Below are positions 1,298 to 17,121 of a stretch of 17,121 nt of DNA, piece after piece. The DNA is from Planctomycetota bacterium. Lineage in GTDB: Bacteria > Planctomycetota > Brocadiia > Brocadiales > Brocadiaceae. The first letter of the stretch is position 1. Each line of letters opens with the position of its first letter. The DNA lies in NCBI GenBank assembly GCA_016235875.1, contig JACRII010000057.1, positions 1 to 17,121 of the forward strand, written 5' to 3'. The position numbers and the translations under genes are program-made. The notes under the pieces are model-generated. The model did not search any database, had not been told where the DNA came from, and saw only the letters and a list, made by a program, of their open reading frames with translations.

Positions 1298-1372
1298 AAG
1301 CTCCTTTGTCCGATACCCTACATCGTAGTAAGGACATACTCATCTAATGATTCAAATAGGAGGTATGAGTTT

Positions 1373-1594: not shown

Positions 1595-1618
1595 TATTTT
1601 CAGATAAGGAGAATTCAC

Positions 1619-1837: not shown

Positions 1838-1876
1838 TACATTTTATGTTTGATTTAAACACTGAGGAGTTTCTAA

Positions 1877-2554: not shown

Positions 2555-2556
2555 GC

Positions 2557-3582: not shown

Positions 3583-3583
3583 T

Positions 3584-4732: not shown

Positions 4733-4752
4733 TTAAATATTCCATCTATATT

Positions 4753-4929
4753 ATGTACTGCAGATACGAAAATCGTGGGCGTTGTGAATTGAACAAGAAA
4801 GAGTGCGTTCCCACTTCAAAGGGATGCGTTATAAAAACCGTTCCGGGTGTTACATTGATTGGTGATACAAAAAAGCAGTCACCCAAAAAAGACGACATAT
4901 CAGTTAAGAATAAACAATCGAGTCATTAA
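4753..4929 (+). CDS. Possible small Cys-rich protein (58 aa), below the ORF-track length cutoff
   Basis: My own translation gives MYCRYENRGRCELNKKECVPTSKGCVIKTVPGVTLIGDTKKQSPKKDDISVKNKQSSH. Four Cys are regularly spaced (C3, C11, C18, C25). The ATG is 20 nt after the desulfurase stop. No SD is visible. The 3' end overlaps the convergent queC by 26 nt. Confidence 0.25.
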   Translation: MYCRYENRGRCELNKKECVPTSKGCVIKTVPGVTLIGDTKKQSPKKDDISVKNKQSSH

Positions 4930-5575
4930 TACCTGCTTCTTTAAAGGCCTTTAACCGTAGGAAACAGCTATGACATACGCCGCAGGCTTTATCCGTGTTT
5001 TTGTAACACGACCAGCTCAGGTGGAAGGGGGCATTTAAAGAAATGCCCATTTTCACAATCTCTGATTTGCTTTTGCTAATGAGCGGGGTTTCCACCTCGA
5101 TGCATGTTGTGGGTTTCGTCCCTGCCTTGATAAGTTTGTTAAAGGTTTCATAATAAATTGGCCTACAATCGGGATAACCAGGGCTGTCCTGTTCCACAGC
5201 GCCAATAAATACCTTCTTCGCCCCAATAACCTCTCCCCAGGAAACGGCAATGGTCAAAAAAAGCGTGTTTCGAAAGGGGACATATGAGGTGGGAATTTCT
5301 TTGCTGTTTAACTGTGCATCCTGAACGGTCATGCTCAAATCCGTTAGACTCGAACCACCAATCTTGCCCAAATAATCAATGTTAGATATGAGAATCCTTT
5401 CTTCTGGAATGTTGTAGAATGCTGCAATATCCCGAAAAGCCATAAGCTCCCGCGATTCTGTGCGCTGATTGTAGTTAACGTGTAAGAGCGCAATCTGGTA
5501 TTGTGTATTCGCAATAGCCGCAGTTACACAGCTATCCATTCCACCGCTTACCAGTACTATAGCTAATTCTTTCAT
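4904..5575 (-). CDS. queC: 7-cyano-7-deazaguanine synthase
   Basis: 223 aa. The N-terminal PP-loop is AIVLVSGGMDSCV, and the C-terminal Zn-binding cysteine cluster is SWSCY...CGVCHSCFLR. Both are diagnostic of QueC. Confidence 0.92.
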   Translation of the reverse strand: MKELAIVLVSGGMDSCVTAAIANTQYQIALLHVNYNQRTESRELMAFRDIAAFYNIPEERILISNIDYLGKIGGSSLTDLSMTVQDAQLNSKEIPTSYVPFRNTLFLTIAVSWGEVIGAKKVFIGAVEQDSPGYPDCRPIYYETFNKLIKAGTKPTTCIEVETPLISKSKSEIVKMGISLNAPFHLSWSCYKNTDKACGVCHSCFLRLKAFKEAGINDSIVYS

Positions 5576-5634
5576 GGAAAATTTATCTCACCGCTTCCTT
5601 TGCGTTCTCTGCGTCTTTGCGGTAAATATCTATT

Positions 5635-6270
5635 TTAAACTCCTCTTGTTTGTGGCTCCCAGATATATTTATGGAGTTGGAGCTGAAATCGCACATCGAG
5701 ATTATCTTCCAAAATCCATTGAACAACCGTTTTAGGAGAAATTTTGCCAAAGGCGGTTCCTACTAGTACTCTGGCAATTTTGGGTAAATTATATTTCTGA
5801 ATTACGGCCTTCGTCCAGTCATAATCATTCCGTGAACTTAAAACGAATTTCACCTCATCCAGCTTGGCCAGATAGTCGATATTTTGCCAGTTCATTAGAT
5901 GACTCATATTGCTGTCAGGACACTTGATATCCATAATTTTAATGGCTTTTTGAGGTATCGTGCGGATGTCGTAACTCCCGTTCGTTTCGACTAAAACAGT
6001 GTAATTTTTATTCAGTAACGCTTCAAGTAAAAACGGCGTGTCATTATTTGACAGCGGTTCACCTCCAGTAACACAGACTATTTTAGTCTTGAATCTGGCA
6101 ATGCATTCAAGAATAGTACTCAAGGACATTTCATTCCCTTCATCATAGGCGTAAGTGGTATCACAGTAGCTGCAACGTAAATTACAACCCGTTACACGTA
6201 TGAAGGCGCAAGGGAGGCCGGCGTAAGATGTCTCTCCTTGAATACTCTTAAAGATTTCGTTAATTTTCAT
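5635..6270 (-). CDS. queE: 7-carboxy-7-deazaguanine synthase (radical SAM)
   Basis: 211 aa. INEIFKSIQGETSYAGLPCAFIRVTGCNLRCSYCDTTYAY is the QueE N-terminus with the CxxxCxxC-type cluster motif. It sits directly upstream of queC on the same strand. Confidence 0.9.
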   Translation of the reverse strand: MKINEIFKSIQGETSYAGLPCAFIRVTGCNLRCSYCDTTYAYDEGNEMSLSTILECIARFKTKIVCVTGGEPLSNNDTPFLLEALLNKNYTVLVETNGSYDIRTIPQKAIKIMDIKCPDSNMSHLMNWQNIDYLAKLDEVKFVLSSRNDYDWTKAVIQKYNLPKIARVLVGTAFGKISPKTVVQWILEDNLDVRFQLQLHKYIWEPQTRGV

Positions 6271-6470: not shown

Positions 6471-6528
6471 TCATAATAAATATAACTATTACCCTGCGGA
6501 TATTTTCGATACAAGAAAGGGAGGAATT

Positions 6529-7140
6529 ATGGCAACAATTTTGAAAGAAGATATTTTACGTAGGAAAAATAAGGAAACCAGCAGCAAAGAAAAGGTCGAC
6601 AAGATAATGAGCACGATAGTTGCACCACCCGTGCAATCGAACCTGCCAAAATCAGAAAGTAAAGAAAGCAAGCCAACCTCAGAAACAGTAAAACCTGCAG
6701 AAAGTACCGCAAGGCAGCATATCCTCAGCAGCGAAATATTGATAGAAGGAGAGTGTTCATCTGAACTTGACGAGATCAGAAACAGGCTTTTAAAAGAATT
6801 AAAACCTTCCGGTGAAATAGAATCAATTCTTGTGGATCGCATCGTTTCTGGTGTTTGGCGATTGAAACGGTGTTTGAAGATTGAAAGCCAGATAATAGAG
6901 TTTGAGTCGTCCGGCATTCAGGAGTACGAGCAAGGATTTTTTAGGACTAGAAAGAGAACAAATAAAGAACTGTCTCAATTAAGGGCTTTAAAAATAACTG
7001 AAGGTAAAAACAGGCTTGAGGAATTATCCAAATATGAAACCATCTTGGAAAGACAAATATATAAGGCATTAAGTGTACTGGATAAACTCAGACAAAATGG
7101 ATCAGTATCAGAAAAGAGGGTGTCAAGGAAGGCAAAATAG
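6529..7140 (+). CDS. Hypothetical protein (Ser/Lys/Glu-rich N-terminus, helical/coiled C-terminal half)
   Basis: 203-aa ORF. A strong SD (GGGAGG at 6517-6522) lies 6 nt before the ATG. I recognise no family. It contains the pattern SGEIESILVDRIVSGVWRLKRCLKIES. Long non-coding spacers flank it on both sides. Confidence 0.7.
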   Translation: MATILKEDILRRKNKETSSKEKVDKIMSTIVAPPVQSNLPKSESKESKPTSETVKPAESTARQHILSSEILIEGECSSELDEIRNRLLKELKPSGEIESILVDRIVSGVWRLKRCLKIESQIIEFESSGIQEYEQGFFRTRKRTNKELSQLRALKITEGKNRLEELSKYETILERQIYKALSVLDKLRQNGSVSEKRVSRKAK

Positions 7141-7160: not shown

Positions 7161-7189
7161 GTAGAGACAGGTTTAAAACCTGTCTGTAC
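7161..7189 (+). terminator. Hairpin downstream of the 203-aa ORF (possible weak intrinsic terminator)
   Basis: GTAGAGACAGG (7161-7171) pairs with CCTGTCTGTAC (7179-7189): 11 bp with one G/G mismatch and a 7-nt loop, TTTAAAA. Only TTT follows, so the U-tract is poor. It starts 21 nt after the stop codon. Confidence 0.4.
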
Positions 7190-7431: not shown

Positions 7432-7460
7432 TTGACAAGATAAATTATGTCTGCTACTAT
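7432..7460 (+). promoter_or_regulatory. Sigma-70-like promoter for the ACP-led operon
   Basis: TTGACA (7432-7437), an exact 17-nt spacer, and TACTAT (7455-7460), with AT-rich sequence upstream (AAAGAATATTA). This predicts a leader of roughly 70 nt before the ACP start at 7536. An imperfect dyad GACA-N10-TGTC (7434-7451) overlaps the -35 element and spacer. Confidence 0.5.
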
Positions 7461-7535
7461 GTTTTCGTTGTTTTCAAAATTACTATGAATATATATGTGT
7501 CTTTTGTTTCGGTAGTTTAATAAAGGAGGATAATT

Positions 7536-7805
7536 TTGAACGCTGGAGAGATTGAAAAAGGTGTAACCGCTATTGTTGCAGAGGTTACTGAGTTAGACGA
7601 AAAGGAGATTTGGGACAAAAGAGATGCAAATTTCTTTAAAGACCTTGAGATAGATTCCCTTTTAGCCTTAGAGATTCTGGCACTCATTGAAAAGAAGTTT
7701 AAAGTGCAAATACCTGAAGAAAAGCTTGTTGATATTACCTCATTAAACGCAACAATTGATTTAACAAAATCAGTATTGGCAGAGAGCGGCAAACTCACCT
7801 CATAA
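7536..7805 (+). CDS. Dedicated acyl carrier protein
   Basis: 89 aa. The TTG start is effectively forced: an in-frame TAA lies at 7521-7523, the protein has no internal Met, and GGAGG at 7525-7529 sits 6 nt upstream. FFKDLEIDSLLALEILALIEKKF contains the DSL phosphopantetheine-attachment serine (Ser41, codon 7656-7658) at the start of helix II. Confidence 0.9.
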   Translation: MNAGEIEKGVTAIVAEVTELDEKEIWDKRDANFFKDLEIDSLLALEILALIEKKFKVQIPEEKLVDITSLNATIDLTKSVLAESGKLTS

Positions 7806-7841
7806 GATGCTTGATACATAGCGCAACAAGACACAAACCAA

Positions 7842-7892
7842 TTACCCCCCTTTATTTACCCTTCTTAATGAACGGTAGATAAAGGGGGGTAA
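7842..7892 (+). terminator. Strong stem-loop between ACP and fabZ (partial terminator, attenuator or mRNA-stabilising hairpin)
   Basis: TTACCCCCCTTTATTTACC (7842-7860) pairs with GGTAGATAAAGGGGGGTAA (7874-7892): 19 bp with one G-U wobble that is allowed only in the plus-strand RNA, and a 13-nt loop. There is no clean U-tract after it (AACTTTATTAAAAATTT). Confidence 0.55.
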
Positions 7893-7988
7893 AACTTTAT
7901 TAAAAATTTAAAGCATAATATTTATTATTGTGTAATACGATTACCGAGTAATACTTTACATGATTAACACAAAAAAAGCATACTTACA

Positions 7989-8441
7989 ATGATATTATTT
8001 GAGGAAATTCGATCTCTTCTTCCTCAAAAATATCCTTTTCTATTTATTGATAAGGTTGTTGAGTTCGAAGAGGGGAAAAAAATCGTTTGTATCAAAAATG
8101 TATCCGGCAACGAACCTGTCTTTGTCGGACATTTCCCTGATTTTGCCATCATGCCAGGTGTCTTGATCATCGAGGCGATGGCACAGGCTTCTATTATCTT
8201 ATTCAGGAAGAGCCTCCCCCCTCAGCAAAACGACAAGAATACCGTTTTTTTATTAGCATCAGTCAATAATGCACGGTTTACAAAACCTGTATTCCCCGGC
8301 GATCAACTCTTCATAGAAATCATCGTGGAAAAAATTGTCTCCAAGGGCGCTATTGTTCAGGCAACGGTAAAAGTTGAAGAAAAAACCGTTGCGAAGGCAT
8401 CGTTGACCTTTGGCATTGCAGAAAAAAGTGCTTTGGTATAG
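7989..8441 (+). CDS. fabZ: 3-hydroxyacyl-ACP dehydratase
   Basis: 150 aa. LLPQKYPFLFIDKV...VFVGHFPDFAIMPGVLIIEAMAQ is the canonical FabZ hot-dog signature, with the catalytic His (GHFP) and Glu (IEAMAQ) intact. No SD precedes the ATG. Confidence 0.92.
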   Translation: MILFEEIRSLLPQKYPFLFIDKVVEFEEGKKIVCIKNVSGNEPVFVGHFPDFAIMPGVLIIEAMAQASIILFRKSLPPQQNDKNTVFLLASVNNARFTKPVFPGDQLFIEIIVEKIVSKGAIVQATVKVEEKTVAKASLTFGIAEKSALV

Positions 8442-8444
8442 TTT

Positions 8445-9665
8445 ATGAATAAACGTGTTGTTATAACAGGCGTAGGAATGATCACCCCTATCGGGTCAGG
8501 AAAGGACACATTTTGGAAGGCCCTTATTGCAGGGGCGTCTGGTGTGGACAACGTGACGTGCATAGATACTTCCGGCTATAAGGTTCATAAAGGATGTGAA
8601 GTTAAAAATTTCAATTATGCGGATTACATAAAAGACGACATTCTCAAAAAAATTGGCAAAGGTTCGCAATTTGCGATAGTAGCCACAAAGCTGGCTTTAA
8701 ACGATGCCAGGCTTGATTTGAATAAGACTAACTTAGAACGGATTGGGGTCTCTGTTGGAACAACCGCAGGAGAAATACAAATCCTGGAAAAAGTTAATTA
8801 TATCAGGCATAAAGATGGTGAAGATAAGGTCGACCCAGACCTGTTTTTGAAGCATCCTTGTAATAACATCCCGGCTAATATTGCTATTGAGTTTGGTTTG
8901 AAAGGTCCCAATACGATTATACCCACTGCCTGCGCTGCGGGTAATTATGCAATTGGATATGCCTATGACTTGATTAAGTTTGGAAGGGTGGACATGATGT
9001 TTGCCGGCGGTTCAGACCCTTTTTCGAAAGTTGCCTATACGGGATTCGCCAGACTGGGCGCTATTGCCCCTGATATCTGCCAGCCCTTTGATAAAAATAG
9101 AAAAGGCATGATGGTGGGTGAAGGCGCTGGGATGCTTCTTCTGGAATCGCTTGACCATGCAACAAAGAGAAATGCGAATATTTATGCTGAAATTATCGGT
9201 TATGGGCTTAGCTGTGATGCGTACCATATTACAATTCCTCATCCAGACGGCGAAGGTGTTGTCTCTGCTATGAAAAAAGCACTAAAAAGCGCAAACCTGA
9301 GTCCTAAAGATGTCCAGTATGTTAGTGCACATGGAACGGGAACTCCTGCGAATGACAAGGCTGAAACGATTTCAATTAAAAAGGTGTTCGGGGATAAACC
9401 CAGTAATCTTGCAATTAGTTCCATAAAATCAATGATTGGACATACCATGGGGGCAGCTAGCGCTATTGAGGCAATTACTTGCGCATTAGTTGTCCAGAAC
9501 GATATAATTCCTCCAACGATAAATTATGAAACGCTGGATCCGGAATGTGATCTGGACTATGTACCCAATGTTATGAGAAAACAACGGGTAAATATTGCAC
9601 TGAACAACGCCCATGCATTTGGCGGTAACAATAGTTGTCTGGTTGTAAAAAAGTTCACAGGATAA
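8445..9665 (+). CDS. fabF: Beta-ketoacyl-ACP synthase II type ketosynthase (catalytically complete)
   Basis: 406 aa. The ATG is 3 nt after the fabZ stop. The active-site Cys is in [12 protein letters not shown] (Cys163, codon 8931-8933). The two His are in [11 protein letters not shown] and [30 protein letters not shown] and the C-terminal [14 protein letters not shown] are also present. This is the full FabF/KAS II signature set. Confidence 0.92.
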
Positions 9666-9674
9666 AAAAGGTTT

Positions 9675-10919
9675 GTGATGGAAAAAACGAGAATCGTTAT
9701 TACAGGTGTTTCGGTTATCTCGCCTCTTGGGGCAGACAAGGATATTTTTTGGAAAAATTTAACCGAAGGTGTATCGGGTATAAAACCCGTCACCCTGTTC
9801 GATGTAAGTAAATTTAATAGCAAGCAGGCGGGAGAAATCTCTGGTTTTGATGCCAAGATTTATCTTGGTCAAAAAGGAATCCGACATATCGATAGAACCT
9901 CGCTCCTTGTATCATCAGGAACGGTTCTTGCCATCAAAGATGCGAACCTCGAAAACAATACCTATAGCGGTGATGAGCTGGGCATTGTCGTCGGCTCTAC
10001 CTATGGAAGTATTGACAGCATCAGTTCCTTTGATTTCCAGTCTTTGCGCGAAGGTCCCAGTTATGTCAATCCCATGGACTTTCCTAACACCGTGTTGAAT
10101 GCGCCAGCAAGCCGTGCCTCTATTTTCTGTAAGGCCACAGGACTCAATACCACCATTTCAAACGGCGTGACAAGCAGTATCGATGCTATTATTTATGCCT
10201 CTGATTTCCTTCGTATGGGTCGTGTAAAGGCAGCAGTTGTAGGCGGTGTACATGGATTAACCCATGACATATTTTGGGGTTCACATAATTCAAAGATACT
10301 GGCTGGCAGCAAGAACGGAACGCCGGAAATTTGCGCTCCATTTGATAAGAGGCGCAATGGAATGATTATTGGCGAGGCATCGGCGTTAGTTATTCTGGAA
10401 ACTTTGGAAGACGCTTTGAAGAGAAATGCGCATATATATGCTGAAGTTAAGGGTTACGGAACTGCATTCGAGCCTAAAATGGCCGTCAGCAAAGAATATC
10501 AAATAGACGGTAACAGGAGAGCCATTATGAACGCTCTTAATGACGCCAATCTGACACTGCATGACATTTCCTATATCTCCGCCAATGCCTATTCCGGTAT
10601 TCATGGCGATGCTCTTGAAACTAAAGTTATCAAAGAAGTCTTTGGTATGCGATCAAAACTCATCCCTGTGTCAGCTATAAAATCTATGACCGGTGAGTGT
10701 TTTGACGCCTCAGGTGCATTACAAACCATAGCCGCATTGATGTCCATCAAAACACACACAATTCCACCCACTATAAATTATAAGGAACCGGATACAGAGT
10801 GTGATTTAGATTACGTGATCAACAACAGCAGGGCTGTCCCAGTCAAGAACGTCCTTATAAACTCTTTCTCCCGATTGGGAAATAATTCATCCTTAATTAT
10901 CTCCAAATACAAACCGTAA
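9675..10919 (+). CDS. Ketosynthase homologue lacking the Cys-His-His triad (chain-length-factor-like, probably non-condensing partner subunit)
   Basis: 414 aa, with a GTG start at 9675 or an ATG at 9678. It aligns without gaps to the upstream KS over the conserved blocks (VITGVSVISPLG, RRNGMIIGEASA, HIYAEVKGYG, IPPTINY..D.ECDLDYV). The catalytic Cys position reads NGVTSS (Val; codons about 10164-10178). First His becomes Met (EPKMAV). Second His becomes Asn (ISANAYSG). The GH of KSMxGH becomes GE. Confidence 0.85.
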   Translation: MMEKTRIVITGVSVISPLGADKDIFWKNLTEGVSGIKPVTLFDVSKFNSKQAGEISGFDAKIYLGQKGIRHIDRTSLLVSSGTVLAIKDANLENNTYSGDELGIVVGSTYGSIDSISSFDFQSLREGPSYVNPMDFPNTVLNAPASRASIFCKATGLNTTISNGVTSSIDAIIYASDFLRMGRVKAAVVGGVHGLTHDIFWGSHNSKILAGSKNGTPEICAPFDKRRNGMIIGEASALVILETLEDALKRNAHIYAEVKGYGTAFEPKMAVSKEYQIDGNRRAIMNALNDANLTLHDISYISANAYSGIHGDALETKVIKEVFGMRSKLIPVSAIKSMTGECFDASGALQTIAALMSIKTHTIPPTINYKEPDTECDLDYVINNSRAVPVKNVLINSFSRLGNNSSLIISKYKP

Positions 10920-10922
10920 TTC

Positions 10923-12377
10923 ATGCTGTCTTCCGATACGTGTATTCAATCCACAAAAAAGGATATGCTATATCCTTATTATGATGCGATTGTGATTGGC
11001 TCGGGCGTAGCAGGATTAGTATGCGCTGCATTTCTTGCCAAATGTGGAAAAAAAGTGCTTATGGTGGAGCAACATTTCATTCCCGGAGGTTATTGTACTT
11101 CTTTTAAGCGAAAGGGTTTTACCTTCGATGCCGCAGTTCATCATATTGGCGGTTGCGGAAAATGGAGTGTTGTCGGTCGCTGCTTTAAGACACTTGGGAT
11201 TGGAATGGATTTCTATCCTCTCGACCCAATGGATCACCTGATTTTCCCCAACTTCAGCATTGAAATTCCAGCCGACCTGGATGAGTATATCGCACGTTTA
11301 CAGGATCGTTATCCATTGGAAAAAGACAACATTAAAGATTTTTTCCAGGATTTTATAAAACTCTACCGCGCTACATTTAACAATGAAAAGAGTCAAATTA
11401 TTGATAAATATAAGGATCAAACATATGGCGAGATGTTAGATGCCTTTTTTAAGAACGACGAACTCAAGATGATACTTGCCGGCCAATGGGGATACATAGG
11501 TCTCCCCCCTACTCAGGCATCCGCTATTGCAATGTGTCAAATGATGATCAATTATCTCAAAGACGGCGCATTTTTTCCTGCGGGTGGTACGCAAGAGTTT
11601 GCTAATGCAATTTTTAAGAAATTTATTGATTTTGGCGGACATGTTATGCTATCATCAAGAGTCAAGAAAATCCTTCTGAATGGTAGTTCCGTAAAAGGCA
11701 TTAAGTTACAGGATGGTAAAGAAATTTACTCCGGTTTAGTTGTGTCGAATGCTGACGCCAGGCAGACTTTTTTTGACCTATTAGAAGGTAAATCCGATCC
11801 ATCCTTTCTTAAAAAAGTTGAGGAGATGAGAGAAAGTTGTTCCTTCTTTCTTTTATATTTAGGCGTTGGAGGTGATGTAGATTTAACGAAGGTAAAGAGA
11901 GGGTTTTATCATACGGCCACAGATGCAAGCGCTATGGACAAAGAATGGTTATATATTTCCGTTCCAACAAAAATAAGTCCTACCCTTGCACCTTCAAATA
12001 AGCAAATAATATCTGTGGTTGTCTATTTGAATAAAGCGATGTATAAAAACGTTACCGATTGGAAATCTTTTAAAGAACGCATGACATTACAAACGATCAA
12101 TAGATTAGAATCATATATTCCTGATTTAAAAAAATATATCGAAGTAAAAGAGTCAGCTACACCGAAAACCCTGGAACGTTACACATCAAACACAAGCGGA
12201 GCTGCTTATGGCTGGGAAGTCACGGTCGACCAAATGTGGGAGAATAGACTATCACAGAAGACACCGATTGAAAATCTATATTTAACAGGTCATTGGACAA
12301 GACCAGGTCCTGGGATTTGTGCCGTTGTCTCTTCGGGATGGAGCGTAGCTAATTTAATTATGGAGAATTGGAGGTAA
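10923..12377 (+). CDS. CrtI/phytoene-desaturase-family FAD-dependent oxidoreductase
   Basis: 484 aa. The ATG is 3 nt after the upstream stop. The N-terminal dinucleotide fold is YDAIVIGSGVAGLVCAAFLAKCGKKVLMVEQHFIPGGYC. The C-terminal GAAYGW...NLYLTGHWTRPGPGICAVVSSG block is typical of CrtI/CrtD-type desaturases and isomerases. Confidence 0.85.
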   Translation: MLSSDTCIQSTKKDMLYPYYDAIVIGSGVAGLVCAAFLAKCGKKVLMVEQHFIPGGYCTSFKRKGFTFDAAVHHIGGCGKWSVVGRCFKTLGIGMDFYPLDPMDHLIFPNFSIEIPADLDEYIARLQDRYPLEKDNIKDFFQDFIKLYRATFNNEKSQIIDKYKDQTYGEMLDAFFKNDELKMILAGQWGYIGLPPTQASAIAMCQMMINYLKDGAFFPAGGTQEFANAIFKKFIDFGGHVMLSSRVKKILLNGSSVKGIKLQDGKEIYSGLVVSNADARQTFFDLLEGKSDPSFLKKVEEMRESCSFFLLYLGVGGDVDLTKVKRGFYHTATDASAMDKEWLYISVPTKISPTLAPSNKQIISVVVYLNKAMYKNVTDWKSFKERMTLQTINRLESYIPDLKKYIEVKESATPKTLERYTSNTSGAAYGWEVTVDQMWENRLSQKTPIENLYLTGHWTRPGPGICAVVSSGWSVANLIMENWR

Positions 12378-12385
12378 ATAAAAAT

Positions 12386-13846
12386 ATGAGTAGAAAAATG
12401 ATGTTAATTAATCCACATAAACCGGGCAGGCATGGTGAGGAGAGTATTACGGTAATCGTTCAAATGCCTTTAAATCTTGCCTACGTTGCCGCTCTTACAC
12501 CCGGTGATTGGGAATTTGACGTTATCGACGAAAATATTGAATTGGCAATAAACGATAATGATGAACTCACTTTTAAACCGGTAGACCTTGTGTGTATTAC
12601 CTCAGTTACCTATCAGTCTCCCAGGGCATACAAGATTGCAGCCGCTTGCAGGAAAAAGGGCATGACAGTAATCATGGGTGGAATACATGCATCTGTTGTG
12701 CCTGAAGAGGCCGCAAATTACGTTGATGCTGTTTTTGTGGGTGAGGCAGAAGAAGTGTGGCCACAGGTCATAAAAGATTTTGAAGCAGGAAAATTAAAAA
12801 AGGTCTACCAGGGCGGCTTACCCCCCCTTAGCCTGATGAAGAAGGTGTATCCAAACCGCGAACTCTTGAAAAATAAATACAACTATAAATTTTCTTCCAT
12901 CGTAACAACAAAAGGATGCCCCAACTATTGTGATTTTTGCAGTGTACCCACATTCCAGGGCAGAAAATTCAGGGAAAGACCTTATGAAGATGTCCTCGAT
13001 GAGATGGCAGCCACAGATTACAAGGGATTGATGTTAGCGGAAGATAACTTCTACGGTCATGGAAAAAAATCAAACGAGAGGGCACGAGATCTTTTCAAGG
13101 GAATGGTGGAACGTGGCATACACAAAGACTGGTTAGGATTCACGGCGTTAAACATCTCTCAAGACCAGGAAACATTAGATTATATGGCCAAGAGCGGCAA
13201 TTTTGGTATGCTTATCGGTATAGAATCTACGAATGAGGCCGTTTTGGAGAAAATGAATAAACGTGTGAACCTGAAGTTGGGTACCGATAGTTATTTTGAT
13301 TGTATCCAAAAGATTCACAACGCCGGCTTGGTTGTCTGGGGTTCCGTGGTATTTGGGGCCGATGGAGACGACAAAGATTCTTTTAAAAGAATGACTGAAT
13401 TTATATTGGAAAACAATATTGATATTCTCACCTTTGGCATTAACTGTCCCTTCCCCAAGACGCAACTCTATGCAAGACTGGATTCAGAAAAGAGGATTTT
13501 CAGGAAAAATTATCCGGAGGATTGGCAATATTACGATACAGCCCATGTGGTACACCGTTTCGTAGACATGTCATTGGAAAACTTTATTGAAGGCATGCAG
13601 TATGTTTATGACCATATTTATGCAGGTGATAACCTAAGGACACGATTCAGAAACTCAATTAAAACAACAAAGAATCCCAGAAACTCCATGTTTGCATTCA
13701 GGGTGGGTTCGGATTGGAAACAAGTTTTTGAACAAGTATTGCAGAATTTGAAGGAATTATACGATTCAGGCGATTATTATCAGGACTGGTACAAATCAAG
13801 TGCAGTACCTGTTTCAAAGCCAGTTATGGAAACAGTAACCACATAA
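12386..13846 (+). CDS. B12-binding-domain radical SAM enzyme (class B rSAM)
   Basis: I prefer the ATG at 12386 (MSRKMMLINP...), with GGAGG at 12370-12374. The track's TTG at 12368 would overlap the upstream gene by 10 nt. The N-terminal cobalamin-binding-like domain reads DLVCITSVTYQSPRAYKIAAACRKKGMTVIMGGIHASVVPEE. The radical SAM motif GCPNYCDFC (CxxxCxxC) is encoded at 12917-12940. Confidence 0.85.
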   Translation: MSRKMMLINPHKPGRHGEESITVIVQMPLNLAYVAALTPGDWEFDVIDENIELAINDNDELTFKPVDLVCITSVTYQSPRAYKIAAACRKKGMTVIMGGIHASVVPEEAANYVDAVFVGEAEEVWPQVIKDFEAGKLKKVYQGGLPPLSLMKKVYPNRELLKNKYNYKFSSIVTTKGCPNYCDFCSVPTFQGRKFRERPYEDVLDEMAATDYKGLMLAEDNFYGHGKKSNERARDLFKGMVERGIHKDWLGFTALNISQDQETLDYMAKSGNFGMLIGIESTNEAVLEKMNKRVNLKLGTDSYFDCIQKIHNAGLVVWGSVVFGADGDDKDSFKRMTEFILENNIDILTFGINCPFPKTQLYARLDSEKRIFRKNYPEDWQYYDTAHVVHRFVDMSLENFIEGMQYVYDHIYAGDNLRTRFRNSIKTTKNPRNSMFAFRVGSDWKQVFEQVLQNLKELYDSGDYYQDWYKSSAVPVSKPVMETVTT

Positions 13847-13880
13847 TACGGTAAATAGGCATATGAATTCTTAATGGAAT

Positions 13881-13925
13881 TTATAAAGGCACATCAATTT
13901 CATAATTGTTGATGTGCCTTTATAA
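13881..13925 (+). terminator. Intrinsic-terminator-like hairpin closing the lipid operon
   Basis: TTATAAAGGCACATCAA (13881-13897) is the perfect reverse complement of TTGATGTGCCTTTATAA (13909-13925): 17 bp with an 11-nt loop. The GC-rich core GGCACATCAA/TTGATGTGCC is followed by TTTATAATT. It starts 35 nt after the radical SAM stop codon. Confidence 0.6.
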
Positions 13926-13963
13926 TTGATAATAATCATGGTTTTGTGTTCGGCGGTTATGTC

Positions 13964-14380
13964 ATGGAAAATATCCTGAACCGAATTAGAGATTTCAGTA
14001 AAAAGGTTGAATTATTTTATGTGGCAACATCAAACCAAAAGAAAGAGGTACACCTCGCGGTAGCGAAGGGTTTGATTTTTTTACCTGACAATGAACATGT
14101 GGCTTTCAAGTCGTGGTTTTGCAAAAAAACAATAGAAAATATTCTTGAGAACCCGAATATATCTATTGCTATCTATGATACGAAGACCGATATGGGTTAT
14201 CAAATAGTTGGCAGAACAGTCTCAAAAAACGTGGTAGCTGTTTTAGATGGTTACTCACCGAGGTTGGAAAAGATTGAAAAAGAATATCCACAGGAAGAGT
14301 ATCAGTTGAAAGTAAAAATTATAAACATTATGGATTTACACAGAGTAGCTCATTCTGACAAGTATCTTTTACTTAATTGA
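13964..14380 (+). CDS. Pyridoxamine 5'-phosphate oxidase-like (FMN-binding split-barrel) family protein
   Basis: I prefer the ATG at 13964 (MENILN...) over the track's GTG at 13946. LFYVATSNQKKEVHLAVAKGLIFLPDNEHVAF...TIENILENPNISIAIYDTKTDMGYQIVGR follows the usual PNPOx-like pattern (..aT.....P....k.......l.F......T..Nl..NP.vs..v.d....g.qi.G.). The family call is from memory. Confidence 0.5.
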   Translation: MENILNRIRDFSKKVELFYVATSNQKKEVHLAVAKGLIFLPDNEHVAFKSWFCKKTIENILENPNISIAIYDTKTDMGYQIVGRTVSKNVVAVLDGYSPRLEKIEKEYPQEEYQLKVKIINIMDLHRVAHSDKYLLLN

Positions 14381-14420: not shown

Positions 14421-14549
14421 ATGATAGGCAAGTTATTATCTTTATCAATGGAGAAATCGATCATTCCGGATATTAGTCCAAAAGCAATTATGGTTATTGC
14501 CATTGCGCTAATATTCGTTATATTATTCACCTGGAAAAAGGAGGGATAA
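14421..14549 (+). CDS. Small single-pass membrane peptide (42 aa), below the ORF-track cutoff
   Basis: My own translation gives MIGKLLSLSMEKSIIPDISPKAIMVIAIALIFVILFTWKKEG. An excellent SD (AAGGAGGTG at 14408-14416; the GGAGG core is 6 nt before the ATG). A C-terminal hydrophobic helix is followed by KKEG. Its last codons (AAG GAG GGA TAA) provide the SD for the next gene, whose TTG start abuts the TAA. Confidence 0.55.
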   Translation: MIGKLLSLSMEKSIIPDISPKAIMVIAIALIFVILFTWKKEG

Positions 14550-15983
14550 TTGCCTGAGAGAAGCGCTGCCTTCGATCTGGTAATCATTGGTGGCGGGCCT
14601 GGCGGTTACGTATCCGCTATAAAGGCTGCTCAGCTTGGAATAAAGACTGCACTCGTCGAAAAGAATAAAGTTGGTGGTACGTGTTTGCATCAGGGTTGCA
14701 TCCCGACAAAGGTACTTTTATATTCTGCGGACATTTACCGTAAGTTACTTAAGGCACATGAATATGGAATTACTTTTGATAAAGTAGGGATTAATTATCC
14801 ACAGTTTCATCGACGCAAAGAGTCCGTCGTTAAACGATTATTCCAGGGAACGCAATTTCTCCTCAAAAAAAATGGCGTTGAGGTCTTTGAAGGCGAAGGG
14901 CAACTCACTTCTGCGCATAACGTATTAGTTAAAAAAAAGGGAACAGACATTGTTGAATTAGCAGCAAAAAATGTTATCTTGTCTACCGGTTCTGTTCCAC
15001 TCATTCCCTCTACAATTCCCTGCGATGGGAAATACGTACTCACCAGCGATGACATCTTATTACAGGAAGAAATTCCTAAATCTATTATTATAGCTGGTGC
15101 CGGTGCTGTAGGAATTGAGTTCGCGTATCTTTTTAATATCCTTGGTTCAAAAGTTACCATCGTAGAACTTCTGGATGACGTTCTTCCTGCTGAAGACAAA
15201 GAAATCCGCGCTACTTTAAGGAAATTACTTACGAAAAGAGGTGTAGACATTTTAACAAATACCTCGTTAGAAAAGGTCGAAGTTGATAATGGCGTCCGTG
15301 TAGAAATAAAAAGCAAGATTGATACCCCCCGCTCCCCTACCACAACCGAAAATAAGGAATATTTACAAGCAGATTATTTACTCCTTGCCTTGGGTAGAAC
15401 ACCAGCCTTGGCACATCTTGGACTAGAAAAACTGTCATTAAGTTTTAAAGGAAAATATTTGCAAACGAATGAAGTTATGGAAACCAGCCAAAAGGGACTC
15501 TATGCAATTGGAGACATTACCGGTACTCCCCTTCTAGCTCATAAGGCTTCAAATGAAGGTCTATGTGCCGTTTCTCACATTGCCGGCAAAGAAACTACCC
15601 CAATAAATTATCAAAACATCCCACGGGTGACATATTGCTCTCCACAGGTAGCAAGTGTAGGTCTTACACAGGATGAGGCTGAAAGCAAAGGATACAAAAT
15701 AAAAGTGGGAAAATTTCCACTCATTGCCAATAGTAAGGCCATTATTGACGGAGAATATGAGGATGGATTTGTAAAGATTATTGCAGATGAAAAATACGGT
15801 GAAATATTGGGAGCGCATGCCGTAGGACCAAATGTGGGAGAGTTGATGTGGGGTATCTCACTTACCACACTTTTAGAAGGTACGGCTTCTGAGCTATCGA
15901 GAAATATATACCCCCACCCTACTCTTTCTGAAGCAATTCTAGAGGCTGCCCATGCAGTTGTTGATAAAGCGATACATTTATGA
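14550..15983 (+). CDS. lpdA: Dihydrolipoyl (dihydrolipoamide) dehydrogenase
   Basis: 477 aa. The TTG start is forced: an in-frame TAA lies immediately upstream, there is no ATG before the Rossmann fold, and GGAGG at 14540-14544 sits 5 nt upstream. Motifs present: FDLVIIGGGPGGY, the redox-active disulfide GGTCLHQGCIPTK, a second dinucleotide fold IIAGAGAVGIEFA, and the C-terminal HPTLSE interface motif. Confidence 0.92.
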   Translation: MPERSAAFDLVIIGGGPGGYVSAIKAAQLGIKTALVEKNKVGGTCLHQGCIPTKVLLYSADIYRKLLKAHEYGITFDKVGINYPQFHRRKESVVKRLFQGTQFLLKKNGVEVFEGEGQLTSAHNVLVKKKGTDIVELAAKNVILSTGSVPLIPSTIPCDGKYVLTSDDILLQEEIPKSIIIAGAGAVGIEFAYLFNILGSKVTIVELLDDVLPAEDKEIRATLRKLLTKRGVDILTNTSLEKVEVDNGVRVEIKSKIDTPRSPTTTENKEYLQADYLLLALGRTPALAHLGLEKLSLSFKGKYLQTNEVMETSQKGLYAIGDITGTPLLAHKASNEGLCAVSHIAGKETTPINYQNIPRVTYCSPQVASVGLTQDEAESKGYKIKVGKFPLIANSKAIIDGEYEDGFVKIIADEKYGEILGAHAVGPNVGELMWGISLTTLLEGTASELSRNIYPHPTLSEAILEAAHAVVDKAIHL

Positions 15984-16011: not shown

Positions 16012-17121
16012 ATGAAAGCATCAGATTTACTTGTAAAATGTTTGGAAAACGAGGGTGTTCGCTATATCTTCGGAATCCCCGGCGAGGAAAACATAGACAT
16101 CCTCGACTCTTTGTTGGATTCAAAGATACAATTCATTCCGACACGCCATGAACAAGCCGCTGCTTTTATGGCGGATGTCTATGGCCGGTTGACGGGTAAG
16201 GCAGGTGTATGCTTATCCACGCTCGGACCCGGGGCTACCAATCTTGTAACGGGCGTTGCCGATGCCAATCTGGATCGAGTGCCCCTTGTTGCTATTACCG
16301 GCCAGGCTAGTCTCGACCGGATGCACAAGGAATCTCATCAATACATGGACACCGTTGCTTTATTCAAGCCAATTACAAAATGGAATACCCTTGTTCATAC
16401 AGCCGACATTATCCCTGAAGTTGTCAGGAAGGCATTTAAACTTGCCCAGATGGAAAAACCAGGCGCTACTCACATTGACTTTCCAGAGGACGTAGCAAAG
16501 GCAGACCTCATAGCTCTACCAATTCCCTTGAAAGCAGAGGCACATATCCCCTACCCCACCGAAGAGACATTAGGAATTGCCGCACAGTTAATTTCAGATG
16601 CAAAATACCCGGTTATTCTTGCGGGAAATGGCGTCATCAGATCTCAAGCTTCTGAATCTTTAACAAACTTTGCAGTAAAATTAAATATACCTGTAGCCAC
16701 CACGTTTATGGGCAAAGGAGCTATCTCAGATGATTGGCCACTCTCCTTGCTTTCAATTGGCCTGCGGGATGATGACCATATTTCTTGCGGTTTTGACCAG
16801 GCAGATTTAATTATCGCTATTGGATATGACCTTGTGGAATACCCCCCCTACAAATGGAATCCATATAAGTCAAAGAAGATACTTCACATCGACGTTACTC
16901 CCAGCGAGGTAGACGCCTATTATAATGTTGATATGGAAGTAATTGGTAAAATTTCTGAAACCCTTGACCATTTGTCTGGTATGGTCAGAATAAAAGAGAC
17001 AAAACATATTATCAGTATTTTGCGAAATTCAGTTACAGAAGAATGCAAAACTACACACGACGATACATCATTTCCCATGAAGCCTCAAAAAATATTGTGC
17101 GTTGTGCGCGAAGTATTAAAA
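16012..17121 (+). CDS. Thiamine-diphosphate-dependent acetolactate-synthase-family enzyme, N-terminal 370 codons (continues beyond window end)
   Basis: My own translation from the ATG at 16012 is open to the window end (1110 nt, no stops): MKASDLLVKCLENEGVRYIFGIPGEENIDILDSL...TRHEQAAAFMADVYGRLTGKAGVCLSTLGPGATNLVTGVADANLDRVPLVAITGQ... This is the classic ThDP Pyr-domain signature of the AlsS/IlvB family. It is absent from the ORF track because it has no stop codon. Confidence 0.88.
   Translation, partial: MKASDLLVKCLENEGVRYIFGIPGEENIDILDSLLDSKIQFIPTRHEQAAAFMADVYGRLTGKAGVCLSTLGPGATNLVTGVADANLDRVPLVAITGQASLDRMHKESHQYMDTVALFKPITKWNTLVHTADIIPEVVRKAFKLAQMEKPGATHIDFPEDVAKADLIALPIPLKAEAHIPYPTEETLGIAAQLISDAKYPVILAGNGVIRSQASESLTNFAVKLNIPVATTFMGKGAISDDWPLSLLSIGLRDDDHISCGFDQADLIIAIGYDLVEYPPYKWNPYKSKKILHIDVTPSEVDAYYNVDMEVIGKISETLDHLSGMVRIKETKHIISILRNSVTEECKTTHDDTSFPMKPQKILCVVREVLK

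What the first reader, a model, noticed from the sequence alone, without database searches (positions are those of the whole stretch)
7432..13925. Self-contained ACP / FabZ / KS / KS-like / CrtI-like / B12-radical-SAM operon: candidate ladderane-type or other exotic lipid pathway
Seen in the sequence: six same-strand genes, ACP (7536-7805), FabZ (7989-8441), KS (8445-9665), KS-like (9675-10919), CrtI-family flavoenzyme (10923-12377) and B12-binding radical SAM (12386-13846). After the ACP, the gene junctions are only 3, 9, 3 and 8 nt. The set is bracketed by a TTGACA-17-TACTAT promoter-like site and a 17-bp terminator hairpin, so it reads as one transcription unit. Established knowledge: ACP, FabZ and FabF are type II fatty-acid-synthase parts. 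CrtI-family enzymes desaturate or isomerise long hydrocarbon chains. Class B radical SAM enzymes perform methylation, cyclisation and C-C bond chemistry on unactivated carbons. Inference: an acyl chain built on a private ACP is desaturated and then radically rearranged, which points to a specialised lipid pathway rather than housekeeping FAS. From memory, this gene content and order is the cluster singled out by comparative genomics in the anammox bacterium Kuenenia stuttgartiensis (Rattray et al. 2009, Biology Direct) as a candidate for ladderane (fused cyclobutane) lipid biosynthesis. I recall locus tags around kuste3603-3608 but have not verified them. To my knowledge that chemistry has never been reconstituted, so the system remains functionally undescribed. 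Alternative reading: a highly reducing type II PKS-like polyene pathway.
Basis: partly seen in the sequence, partly recalled or inferred. Interest (0 to 1): 0.92.

Follow-up and report, generated by a model that had tools for sequence, protein, structure and literature searches.

The report
Anammox "Cluster I" lipid operon, not anammox-exclusive
This is the Brocadia copy of the already-described anammox "Cluster I" (kuste3603-3608), the leading but unproven candidate for making ladderane lipids. The same gene block also turns up in high-GC genomes labelled Acidobacteriota, Planctomycetota and Myxococcota, which conflicts with the published statement that it occurs only in ladderane producers.

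Summary
Six same-strand genes (ACP, FabZ, KS, catalytically dead KS, CrtI-like flavoenzyme, B12-domain radical SAM) lie at the stated coordinates, with junctions of 3, 9, 3 and 8 nt. The region is the ortholog of Kuenenia stuttgartiensis kuste3603-3608 ("Cluster I"). It is 78-96% identical in protein to Brocadia sinica JPN1. Four of its proteins match solved structures of the anammox-specific (amx) proteins: amxACP, amxFabZ and the amxFabF2/amxFabFmut heterodimer. So the system is already known, and four of the six proteins are characterised. The product is still unknown.

New here:
1. The same block, in the same order, occurs in at least 20 loci of 53-70% GC labelled Acidobacteriota, Planctomycetota or "Spirochaetales"; a related CrtI-like protein is labelled Myxococcota. 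A FabG-like ketoreductase usually follows it. This contradicts the literature claim of exclusivity.
2. A second radical SAM-KS-dead KS module is repeatedly adjacent to the block.
3. The TTGACA-17-TACTAT promoter is conserved across Brocadia and Kuenenia.

Most likely the block is a private ACP assembly line: KS/chain-length-factor pair, ketoreductase and dehydratase, with no enoyl reductase. It would make short unsaturated acyl-ACPs that the flavoenzyme and the radical SAM enzyme then tailor. It is probably needed for ladderane synthesis but is not sufficient.

The parts
7432..7460 (+). Sigma-70-type promoter: TTGACA, 17 nt, TACTAT with an upstream TG
   Evidence: Found by the scan. The block AATATTATTGACAA...GTCTGCTACTATG is conserved in window, B. 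sinica and Kuenenia within otherwise diverged intergenic DNA.
7536..7805 (+). amxACP ortholog (89 aa, TTG start, phosphopantetheine Ser41 in the DSL motif)
   Evidence: PP-binding 53 bits. Below the canonical AcpP cut-off: TIGR00517 49.9 vs 70.45 bits. Matches 7auf, Kuenenia amxACP, at E 9e-44. The TTG start and the AAGGAGG ribosome-binding site are conserved.
7842..7892 (+). Strong hairpin between ACP and FabZ (23-nt arms, 5-nt gap). Candidate attenuator, terminator or RNA-stabilising stem.
   Evidence: region folds at -38.5 kcal/mol, z -8.0. Not present in B. sinica or Kuenenia.
7989..8441 (+). amxFabZ ortholog (150 aa): catalytic His48 and Glu62; amxFabZ signatures Ile69, Thr98 and Val117
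   Evidence: NF000582 FabZ 156 bits. Matches 8ayd at E 2e-77. Signature columns; the signatures are defined in PMC10139942.
8445..9665 (+). amxFabF2 ortholog: active ketosynthase (Cys163, His296, His333)
   Evidence: Matches 9s5h_B at 836 bits over all 406 residues. Catalytic triad columns.
9675..10919 (+). amxFabFmut ortholog: chain-length-factor-like dead ketosynthase (Cys to Val165, His to Asn304, His to Glu341)
   Evidence: Matches 9s5h_C at 804 bits. Triad columns. Same substitutions as Kuste3606 in PMC2649909 Table 2.
10923..12377 (+). CrtI/CrtD-fold FAD enzyme (the cluster's 'PDH', kuste3607 ortholog); GxGxxG at residues 26-31
   Evidence: Amino_oxidase and NAD_binding_8. crtI_fam 184 bits against a cut-off of 238. 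AlphaFold2 model pLDDT 92; best fold matches 4rep (TM 0.83) and 4dgk.
12386..13846 (+). B12-binding-domain radical SAM enzyme (kuste3608 ortholog); CxxxCxxC at Cys178, Cys182, Cys185
   Evidence: AlphaFold2 model pLDDT 91. Best fold matches are AprD4, MgmA, TsrM, TokK, CysS and OxsB.
13881..13925 (+). 17-bp perfect hairpin after the radical SAM gene (no U-tract)
   Evidence: Conserved in B. sinica, absent in Kuenenia.
13946..14380 (+). PNPOx-like small flavin-binding protein. Conserved neighbour in Brocadia only; membership of the system unproven.
   Evidence: PF01243 32 bits. 76% identical to the B. sinica neighbour. Absent at this position in Kuenenia.
14421..14549 (+). Conserved 42-aa hydrophobic micro-ORF abutting the next gene. 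Conserved neighbour; membership unproven.
   Evidence: Near-identical peptides follow Cluster I in B. sinica and Kuenenia.
14550..15983 (+). Dihydrolipoyl-dehydrogenase-type flavoprotein. Conserved neighbour in Brocadia and Kuenenia; membership unproven.
   Evidence: TIGR01350 527 bits, above its cut-off. Same position in L013 and L014.

Best explanation
The region is the Brocadia ortholog of anammox 'Cluster I' (kuste3603-3608). It is an orthogonal type II acyl-carrier-protein (ACP) assembly and tailoring module.

Steps shown for close orthologs in the literature:
- The active KS and the dead KS form a KS/chain-length-factor-like heterodimer. It decarboxylates malonyl-amxACP, so it primes itself. 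In crosslinking it favours C6-C8 chains.
- amxFabZ dehydrates (3R)-3-hydroxyacyl chains only on amxACP, not on the housekeeping ACP. It strongly prefers chains of C8 or shorter.

Steps inferred here:
- A FabG-type ketoreductase (KR) completes each cycle. It acts in trans in anammox bacteria and is encoded directly after the block in the non-anammox versions.
- No version carries a FabI-type enoyl reductase next to the block. The ACP-bound product is therefore probably a short enoyl or polyenoyl chain.
- The CrtI/CrtD-fold flavoenzyme desaturates or isomerises C-C bonds of that chain.
- The B12-domain radical SAM enzyme activates an unactivated C-H bond, leading to C-C bond formation (cyclisation or ligation) or to methyl transfer.

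In anammox bacteria this most likely supplies a ladderane-specific intermediate. The block is not sufficient alone. A second module (radical SAM, KS, dead KS, with or without a dienoyl reductase, KR and a muconolactone-isomerase-like gene) is repeatedly next to it and probably belongs to the same pathway.
For: Identity:
- Same six genes in the same order as Kuenenia (L013) and B. sinica (L014), at 73-96% protein identity.
- Matches to solved structures 7auf, 8ayd, 9s5h_B and 9s5h_C.
- amxFabZ signatures Ile69, Thr98 and Val117, and the dead triad Val/Asn/Glu.

Biochemistry of orthologs: heterodimer, decarboxylation, C6/C8 preference; amxFabZ chain length and ACP specificity.

KR follows the block, and no FabI-type enoyl reductase was seen next to it:
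- L001, L006, L007.
- L018, L020, L021, L023, L024, L026, L031.

Linkage to a second radical SAM-KS-dead KS module:
- L008, L009, L011, L016, L025-L027.
- In the kuste2802-2805-like locus L005 and in L016 it carries an Old-Yellow-Enzyme/2,4-dienoyl-reductase-type gene.

Other support:
- A Desulfobacterales relative has CrtI-like, KR, ACP, DH, KS and dead KS plus a dienoyl reductase, but no radical SAM gene. This suggests an unsaturated-acyl core with the radical SAM enzyme as an add-on.
- Folds: CrtD/CrtI and class-B-like radical SAM.
- KS, CrtI-like and radical SAM trees each recover the Brocadiales clade in 100% of bootstraps, so the block is inherited as a unit.
Against: - kuste3603-3608 expressed anaerobically in E. 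coli gave no ladderanes and no new fatty acids, although all six proteins were detected.
- No polyunsaturated or cyclopropyl fatty acids have been seen in anammox bacteria, and labelling patterns do not fit the polyene or cyclopropane rearrangement schemes.
- There is no direct evidence linking any Cluster I protein to ladderanes.
- The block also occurs in organisms not known to make ladderanes.
- Cobalamin use is only inferred from a Pfam domain (39 bits against a cut-off of 32.1). The closest solved fold is AprD4, which from my own knowledge binds no cobalamin.
- The short-chain preference was measured by crosslinking and dehydration, not by elongation.
Confidence: 0.6

Rival explanations
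1. The module makes a specialised lipid or polyene that is not a ladderane, for example a conjugated, methyl-branched or otherwise radical-modified short acyl unit. Anammox bacteria and the high-GC carriers would share this product, and the cyclobutane-forming chemistry would be encoded elsewhere.
For: - The complete block is present in Acidobacteriota-, Planctomycetota- and 'Spirochaetales'-labelled MAGs and in soil-type contigs at 53-70% GC; a related CrtI-like protein carries a Myxococcota label.
- Expression in E. coli gave no ladderanes.
- The nearest radical SAM families by score include the methylases HpnR, PhpK and MgmA.
- Rattray et al. already found related clusters in Desulfotalea psychrophila, which makes no ladderanes.
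Against: - The cluster is conserved in every anammox lineage sampled: Kuenenia, Brocadia, Jettenia, Scalindua, Anammoxibacter and Tripitaka labels.
- It is reported as the second most highly expressed fatty-acid cluster in Kuenenia, which fits a bulk membrane lipid.
- The carriers outside anammox bacteria are rare and all uncultured, so their lipids are unknown.
Confidence: 0.25
2. The non-anammox carriers themselves make ladderane-type (fused cyclobutane) lipids with this module. Cluster I would then be the true ladderane core, and ladderanes would not be exclusive to anammox bacteria.
For: - All six genes are orthologous and collinear. The amxFabZ-type bulky tunnel residue, the dead KS and the CxxxCxxC motif are retained.
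- The module is often joined to the second radical SAM-KS-dead KS set, as it is in the Brocadiales locus L016.
Against: - Ladderanes have so far been reported only from anammox bacteria.
- Protein identities are only 33-59%.
- The Brocadiales and non-anammox versions form separate clades, so their products may differ.
Confidence: 0.12
3. The region is an ordinary duplicate of housekeeping type II fatty-acid synthesis, or an aryl-polyene pigment cluster.
For: - The KS scores as FabF (PRK07314, 454 bits).
- Precomputed Pfam lists give ApeI-like and ApeP-like hits on orthologous dehydratases.
Against: - The window holds no FabD, FabG, FabI or FabH.
- The ACP scores below the AcpP cut-off.
- The second KS lacks the whole catalytic triad.
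- amxFabZ does not accept the canonical ACP.
- No aryl-polyene-type genes were recognised: Pfam scans of the other window ORFs show only cytochrome c assembly, ThiF, cysteine desulfurase, QueC/QueE, PNPOx-like, dihydrolipoyl dehydrogenase and a TPP enzyme.
- From my own knowledge, CrtI-like and B12-domain radical SAM genes are not part of aryl-polyene clusters.
Confidence: 0.03

Closest known systems
Anammox 'Cluster I', kuste3603-3608 of Kuenenia stuttgartiensis (Rattray 2009; Javidpour 2016; Dietl 2023; Granatino 2026 preprint)
   Same: Six genes in identical order and on the same strand. Protein identity is 73-91% to Kuenenia and 78-96% to B. sinica. It has the same dead-KS substitutions, the same amxFabZ signatures, the same promoter block and the same downstream micro-ORF plus lpdA-like pair.
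   Different: This genome has tighter KS/dead-KS spacing (9 nt, against about 55-100 nt). It has an extra 183-nt ACP-FabZ spacer with a strong hairpin. Like B. sinica, it has a PNPOx-like gene after the radical SAM gene.
Highly reducing type II PKS KS/CLF systems, for example ishigamide Iga11/Iga12
   Same: An active KS is paired with an adjacent catalytically dead homolog on a private ACP. A dehydratase is present and no enoyl reductase. The Iga11 KS (6kxd) scores 335 bits against the window KS, close to the 360 bits of B. subtilis FabF.
   Different: The dead subunit looks FabF-derived: 255 bits to B. subtilis FabF against 137 bits to the actinorhodin CLF. It carries Val, not the Gln of aromatic-PKS CLFs. 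The system is joined to a CrtI-fold flavoenzyme and a B12-domain radical SAM enzyme, which those PKS systems lack.
kuste2802-2805-type cluster (ACP synthase, B12-domain radical SAM, FabF, non-canonical FabB)
   Same: Paralogous radical SAM (about 54% identity) and a KS/dead-KS pair (L005). It is physically adjacent to Cluster I-type blocks in L008, L009, L011, L016 and L025-L027.
   Different: It has no ACP, FabZ or CrtI-like gene. It often carries an Old-Yellow-Enzyme/dienoyl-reductase-type gene, an enoyl-CoA hydratase, a KR or a muconolactone-isomerase-like gene. It does not lie in this window.
Non-anammox 7-gene module found here (ACP, DH, KS, dead KS, CrtI-like, radical SAM, KR) in Acidobacteriota- and Planctomycetota-labelled MAGs
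   Same: Same six genes in the same order. A bulky residue sits at the FabZ tunnel position (Ile in 4 of the 5 named high-GC MAG loci, Ala in L006; Leu in the unlabelled contig L011). The dead KS and the CxxxCxxC motif are retained.
   Different: GC is 53-70% and protein identity 33-59%. A FabG-like KR is appended, and sometimes a convergent FabH. The active-site Cys of the dead KS is replaced by Ala, Gly, Leu, Ser or Glu instead of Val. The sequences form a separate clade.
CrtI/CrtD carotenoid desaturases and class B (cobalamin) radical SAM enzymes
   Same: Fold-level matches: 4rep with TM 0.83, and AprD4, MgmA, TsrM and TokK with TM about 0.6-0.7.
   Different: Scores fall below the NCBIfam family cut-offs (crtI_fam 184 of 238; TIGR04072 90 of 360). 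The Kuenenia ortholog does not replace CrtI in a lycopene assay.

Membership tests
Anammox Cluster I (kuste3603-3608) | Six genes ACP, FabZ, FabF, dead FabF, PDH (CrtI-like) and B12-domain radical SAM, collinear on one strand | tested here: met
   Same order as in L013 (Kuenenia) and L014 (B. sinica).
Anammox Cluster I (kuste3603-3608) | amxFabZ signatures: Ile instead of Gly at tunnel position 69, Ser/Thr at 96, Val/Ile at 115 (S. brodae numbering) | tested here: met
   Ile69, Thr98 (equivalent to 96) and Val117 (equivalent to 115). Definitions.
Anammox Cluster I (kuste3603-3608) | The second FabF homolog lacks the Cys-His-His triad (Val, Asn, Glu in Kuste3606) | tested here: met
   Val165, Asn304 and Glu341. 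Reference residues.
Anammox Cluster I (kuste3603-3608) | The host is an anammox (Brocadiales) bacterium | tested here: met
   Best hits are Brocadia and Kuenenia proteins. Flanking gene order is shared with B. sinica JPN1. GC is about 40%.
Anammox Cluster I (kuste3603-3608) | KS/dead-KS heterodimer formation and malonyl-ACP decarboxylation | not testable with these tools
   Inferred from full-length matches of 836 and 804 bits to the crystallised heterodimer 9s5h.
Anammox Cluster I (kuste3603-3608) | Cluster found exclusively in ladderane producers (as stated in PMC10139942) | tested here: not met
   The same block occurs in L001, L006-L009, L011 and L018-L033 at 53-70% GC. This is a property of the family, not of this member.
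Type II PKS KS/CLF (aromatic type) | The CLF carries Gln in place of the active-site Cys and groups with actinorhodin-type CLFs | tested here: not met
   Val165. It scores 137 bits to 1tqy_B against 255 bits to B. subtilis FabF.
Highly reducing type II PKS (polyene-forming) | KS/CLF, KR, DH and ACP with no enoyl reductase | tested here: inconclusive
   KS/CLF, DH and ACP are present, and no enoyl reductase. The KR is missing from the window but lies directly after the block in non-anammox homologs. The product is unknown.
Aryl polyene (APE) cluster | Accessory genes that I recall from memory as typical of APE clusters (a second ACP, acyl/glycosyl transferases, a LolA-like/exporter gene, a thioesterase) around the KS pair | tested here: not met
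   No such genes were recognised in the 17-kb window. APE clusters, as far as I know, have no CrtI-like or radical SAM gene.
TIGR04072 rSAM_ladder_B12 (lipid biosynthesis B12-binding/radical SAM protein) | Score at or above the curated cut-off of 360 bits | tested here: not met
   90.4 bits. It is the best-scoring NCBIfam model but falls far below the cut-off.
CrtI phytoene desaturase family (TIGR02734) | Score at or above 238 bits, and phytoene desaturase activity | tested here: not met
   184 bits. The Kuenenia ortholog gave no lycopene when it replaced crtI (literature).
Class B cobalamin-dependent radical SAM | N-terminal B12-binding domain plus a CxxxCxxC radical SAM core | tested here: met
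   PF02310 39 bits (cut-off 32.1) and PF04055 52 bits. Cys178, Cys182 and Cys185 are invariant across 50 homologs.
Class B cobalamin-dependent radical SAM | Actual cobalamin binding or use | not testable with these tools
   The best fold match is AprD4, which from my own knowledge has the domain but no cobalamin.
Housekeeping FAS II | Canonical AcpP (TIGR00517 at or above 70.45 bits) together with FabD, FabG, FabI and FabH | tested here: not met
   The ACP scores 49.9 bits. None of those genes lies in the window.

The most novel reading that the evidence does not exclude
The Cluster I-type module, extended by a ketoreductase and often by the second radical SAM-KS-dead KS set, is an old, portable pathway. 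Uncultured Acidobacteriota, non-anammox Planctomycetota and possibly Myxococcota would also use it to make ladderane-type or related radical-cyclised lipids. Ladderanes would then not be an exclusive anammox biomarker, and the minimal gene set could be read off from what all carriers share.
Probability: 0.15. Interest if true: 0.9.

Novelty: already known. Interest (0 to 1): 0.5.

Why it matters
How ladderanes are made has been an open question since 2002, and Cluster I is the consensus candidate. This window adds one more ortholog, which is nothing new in itself.

What may help the field is the comparative result obtained while checking it:
- The block is not exclusive to anammox bacteria.
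- Outside anammox bacteria it carries its own ketoreductase.
- It is repeatedly fused or adjacent to a second radical SAM-KS-dead KS module.

Together these define a testable minimal gene set. They also offer high-GC versions from other hosts for heterologous expression, where the Kuenenia six genes alone failed. Finally, they caution against using the cluster, or antiSMASH-style 'ladderane' calls, as a marker for anammox bacteria.

Tried and rejected
- Rfam scan of the whole window found no family, so no cobalamin or SAM riboswitch. No tRNAs were found.
- The simple terminator scan flagged neither real hairpin, because both lack a U-tract. The promoter scan as a whole was at chance level, so I relied on cross-genus conservation instead.
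- TIGR04072 'ladder' radical SAM membership was rejected on score.
- The idea that the ACP-FabZ hairpin is a conserved attenuator was rejected. It is absent in B. sinica and Kuenenia and is not a repeated element in the window.
- The genome-contig scan used two narrow peptide patterns and returned only 5 loci, so it gives no prevalence estimate.
- Literature searches for the MAG accessions gave nothing useful.
- I found no paper reporting the block outside anammox bacteria. The library does not cover subscription journals.
- I could not test whether the high-GC MAGs lack hydrazine synthase, because only about 21 kb per locus was available. The non-anammox call rests on record labels, 53-72% GC, flanking genes (pectinase- and apiosidase-type in L001) and separate clades.
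- An apparent mosaic (CrtI-like 78% but radical SAM 95% identical to B. sinica) was rejected as evidence of recombination. The CrtI-like gene is the least conserved gene in every comparison.
- The structure searches did not discriminate methylase from cyclase for the radical SAM enzyme, or desaturase from isomerase for the flavoenzyme.

Full report
**1. The observation**

- ACP, 7536-7805
- FabZ, 7989-8441
- KS, 8445-9665
- KS-like, 9675-10919
- CrtI-like flavoenzyme, 10923-12377
- B12-domain radical SAM enzyme, 12386-13846. ATG 12386 gives the 486 aa typical of its homologs.

Pfam and NCBIfam agree with every assignment. The junctions read from the sequence are 3, 9, 3 and 8 nt.

Key residues are in place:

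| Protein | Residues |
|---|---|
| ACP | Ser41 in the DSL motif |
| FabZ | His48, Glu62 |
| KS | Cys163, His296, His333 |
| Radical SAM | Cys178, Cys182, Cys185 |
| Flavoenzyme | GxGxxG at 26-31 |

The KS-like protein has lost the whole catalytic triad: Val165, Asn304 and Glu341.

**2. Signals around the genes**

The TTGACA-17-TACTAT site at 7432-7460 exists. Such sites occur at chance frequency in this AT-rich region (23 found, 21.7 expected). What makes this one credible is conservation. The block AATATTATTGACAA...GTCTGCTAC(T/C)ATG, the AAGGAGG ribosome-binding site and the unusual TTG start of the ACP are shared by the window, Brocadia sinica and Kuenenia, while the rest of the spacer has diverged.

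The 17-bp hairpin at 13881-13925 is real and is conserved in B. sinica. It lacks a U-tract.

It has 23-nt arms, and the region folds at -38.5 kcal/mol with z -8.0. It sits 36 nt after the ACP stop codon, inside a 183-nt spacer. It is absent from B. sinica and Kuenenia. The claim that all six genes form one transcript is therefore not secure for this genome.

**3. What it is**

The radical SAM protein is 95% identical to that of B. sinica JPN1 and 87% to that of Kuenenia stuttgartiensis. Across the six genes, protein identity to B. sinica is 96, 87, 92, 87, 78 and 95%.

The flanks match too. The upstream 203-aa hypothetical gene, the downstream PNPOx-like gene, a 42-aa micro-ORF and an lpdA-like gene are shared with B. 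sinica. The micro-ORF and the lpdA-like gene are also shared with Kuenenia.

Four proteins hit solved structures of the anammox-specific (amx) proteins over their full length:
- 7auf, amxACP
- 8ayd, amxFabZ
- 9s5h chain B, amxFabF2
- 9s5h chain C, amxFabFmut

kuste3603 is the ACP, 3604 FabZ, 3605 FabF, 3606 the non-canonical FabF, 3607 the phytoene-desaturase-like gene and 3608 the radical SAM gene. The dead-KS substitutions equal those tabulated for Kuste3606. The three published amxFabZ signatures are present. This is 'Cluster I' in a Brocadia species.

**4. What is already known about it**

- Rattray et al. 2009 singled it out by comparative genomics.
- Javidpour et al. 2016 expressed kuste3603-3608 in E. 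coli. All six proteins were made, but there were no ladderanes and no new fatty acids. kuste3607 could not replace CrtI.
- Dietl et al. 2023 showed that amxFabZ works only on amxACP and prefers chains of C8 or shorter.
- A 2026 preprint shows that the two KS form a KS/chain-length-factor-like heterodimer. It decarboxylates malonyl-amxACP and favours C6/C8 chains. This refutes the idea that the dead KS ligates a preformed ladderane.
- No reconstitution exists, and there is no genetic system.

The finding is therefore correct but already known, and 'functionally undescribed' is too strong.

**5. What I found beyond that: distribution**

The literature states that the cluster is 'encountered exclusively' in ladderane producers. 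[quoted passage not shown]

Following radical SAM homologs at 56-59% identity led to the same six genes, in the same order and on the same strand, in these records:

| Locus | Record label | GC |
|---|---|---|
| L001/L002 | Acidobacteria MAG | 60% |
| L006 | Acidobacteriota MAG | 58% |
| L007 | Planctomycetota MAG | 70% |
| L009 | Planctomycetota MAG | 58% |
| L008 | 'Spirochaetales' MAG | 69% |

A metagenome scan added 16 more contigs at 53-70% GC. Gene order was preserved wherever the contig reached. A JGI contig at 66% GC carries the genes inside a larger cluster (L011). Protein-cluster labels add Vicinamibacteria and Myxococcota.

Protein identities to the window are ACP 51-56%, FabZ 45-51%, KS 53-59%, dead KS 33-38%, CrtI-like 39-44% and radical SAM 56-59%.

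These versions keep the dead KS (the Cys is replaced by Ala, Gly, Leu, Ser or Glu), the bulky FabZ tunnel residue in most cases, and the CxxxCxxC motif.

In neighbour-joining trees of KS, CrtI-like and radical SAM proteins, the Brocadiales sequences form a clade in 100% of bootstraps. The non-anammox sequences fall outside it: they form a clade in 100% of bootstraps for the CrtI-like protein and in 52% for the KS. These are therefore neither contaminating anammox contigs nor recent transfers from anammox bacteria.

**6. Anatomy that bears on mechanism**

- In the non-anammox loci a FabG-like ketoreductase directly follows the radical SAM gene. In two of them a FabH converges on the block. No FabI-type enoyl reductase was seen next to the block in any lineage.
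- A second module (radical SAM, KS, short dead KS) lies immediately after the block in L008, L009, L011 and L025-L027. In the Brocadiales locus L016 it converges on the block and carries an Old-Yellow-Enzyme/2,4-dienoyl-reductase-type gene, a ketoreductase and a muconolactone-isomerase-like gene. This is the kuste2802-2805 type. Repeated linkage across phyla argues that the two Kuenenia clusters serve one pathway. It also fits the failure of Cluster I alone in E. coli.
- A Desulfobacterales MAG has dienoyl reductase, CrtI-like, ketoreductase, ACP, dehydratase, KS and dead KS genes but no radical SAM gene. The unsaturated-acyl core with its flavoenzyme may therefore be older than the radical SAM addition.

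**7. Folds**

The radical SAM model (pLDDT 91) is closest to AprD4, MgmA, TsrM, TokK, CysS and OxsB. It is a class-B-type architecture. Cobalamin use is unproven, and methylase chemistry cannot be told from cyclase chemistry.

The flavoenzyme model (pLDDT 92) is closest to a gamma-carotene desaturase (4rep, TM 0.83), then to CrtI and to plant phytoene desaturase. That fits an enzyme acting on C-C bonds of a long hydrophobic chain. By sequence both proteins fall below the curated family cut-offs.

**8. Most likely mechanism**

- *Shown for orthologs.* The KS/dead-KS heterodimer primes itself by decarboxylating malonyl-amxACP and handles short chains. amxFabZ dehydrates short 3-hydroxyacyl-amxACP.
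- *Inferred.* A FabG-type ketoreductase supplies the reduction. No enoyl reduction follows, so short enoyl or polyenoyl-ACP accumulates. The flavoenzyme desaturates or isomerises it. The radical SAM enzyme then forms a C-C bond or adds a methyl group by radical chemistry.
- *Inferred.* In anammox bacteria this feeds ladderane synthesis together with the second module.

I put 0.6 on this package. Within it, identity with Cluster I is about 0.97, and involvement in ladderane synthesis about 0.5-0.6.

The main rival, at 0.25, is a non-ladderane specialised lipid shared with the other carriers. The more radical reading, at about 0.12-0.15, is that the other carriers also make ladderane-type lipids.

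**9. Verdict**

- The system is already known.
- Interest is moderate. The window itself adds nothing new. The check showed that the cluster is not anammox-exclusive and pointed to a larger conserved gene set, which makes the long-standing ladderane question somewhat more testable.

Noticed in passing
window 7842-7892: The strongest inverted repeat in the window (23-nt arms) lies in a 183-nt ACP-FabZ spacer. B. sinica has a 77-nt spacer and Kuenenia a 48-nt spacer, and neither has the hairpin. It looks like a lineage-specific insertion that may uncouple ACP expression from the rest of the cluster.
   Followed up: partly
window 14421-14549 and 14550-15983: A 42-aa hydrophobic micro-ORF (MIGKLLSLSMEKSIIPDISPKAIMVIAIALIFVILFTWKKEG) ends directly against the TTG start of a dihydrolipoyl-dehydrogenase-type gene. 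The same pair follows Cluster I in B. sinica and Kuenenia. By eye the peptide is far better conserved than the 64-77% of the dehydrogenase. No Pfam family matches it.
   Followed up: partly
window 13946-14380: A PNPOx-like small flavin-binding protein lies between the post-radical-SAM hairpin and the micro-ORF. It is present in the window and in B. sinica (76% identity) but not at this position in Kuenenia.
   Followed up: partly
window 6529-7140 (and antisense 6489-6917): A 203-aa Lys/Ser/Glu-rich hypothetical protein with no Pfam or NCBIfam hit lies directly upstream of the cluster. It is 66% identical to the B. sinica neighbour and is followed by its own hairpin at 7161-7189. The overlapping antisense ORF is probably spurious.
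   Followed up: partly
window 341-6270: Unrelated housekeeping genes lie upstream: a CcsA-like cytochrome c assembly gene (-); a tightly coupled operon of a weak ATC_hydrolase-like gene, ThiF/MoeB and a class V cysteine desulfurase (+, 1877-4732); and QueC and a QueE-like radical SAM gene (-, 4904-6270). This upstream context differs from B. sinica.
   Followed up: no
window 16012-17121: A thiamine-pyrophosphate enzyme (acetolactate-synthase-like N-terminal and central domains) runs off the end of the window.
   Followed up: partly
L011 4100-21437 (JGI 3300082212, 66% GC): A large cluster holds ACP, a dehydratase, an FGE-sulfatase-like gene, a Polyketide_cyc2 gene, KS, dead KS, the CrtI-like gene, two B12-domain radical SAM genes, a muconolactone-isomerase-like gene, KS, dead KS, a ferredoxin, an enoyl-CoA hydratase, a ketoreductase, another KS pair and a FabH/chalcone-synthase-like gene. 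It looks like a merged version of several Kuenenia candidate clusters in an unknown organism.
   Followed up: no
L036 6000-15300 (Desulfobacterales MAG): A related cluster without any radical SAM gene: Old-Yellow-Enzyme/dienoyl reductase, FMN reductase, CrtI-like, ketoreductase, ACP, dehydratase, KS and dead KS. It may be the kind of cluster Rattray et al. noted in Desulfotalea.
   Followed up: no
L012 10001-11425 (GCA_051388875.1): A stand-alone paralog of the radical SAM enzyme (58% identity) sits next to MlaD/E/F lipid-transport genes in a Brocadiales-related genome. The same genome also has the six-gene block (L037).
   Followed up: no
L003/L004 6579-11431 (Planctomycetota Bin8, same contig as L007): The same genome carries a separate KS, short dead KS and B12-domain radical SAM set, with a divergently oriented plain radical SAM gene. 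It lies about 300 kb from its Cluster I-type block.
   Followed up: no
window 10923-12377 compared with L013-L017: The CrtI-like gene is consistently the least conserved of the six. Against B. sinica it is 78% identical while the others are 87-96%. Against L016 it is 56% while the others are 60-79%.
   Followed up: partly
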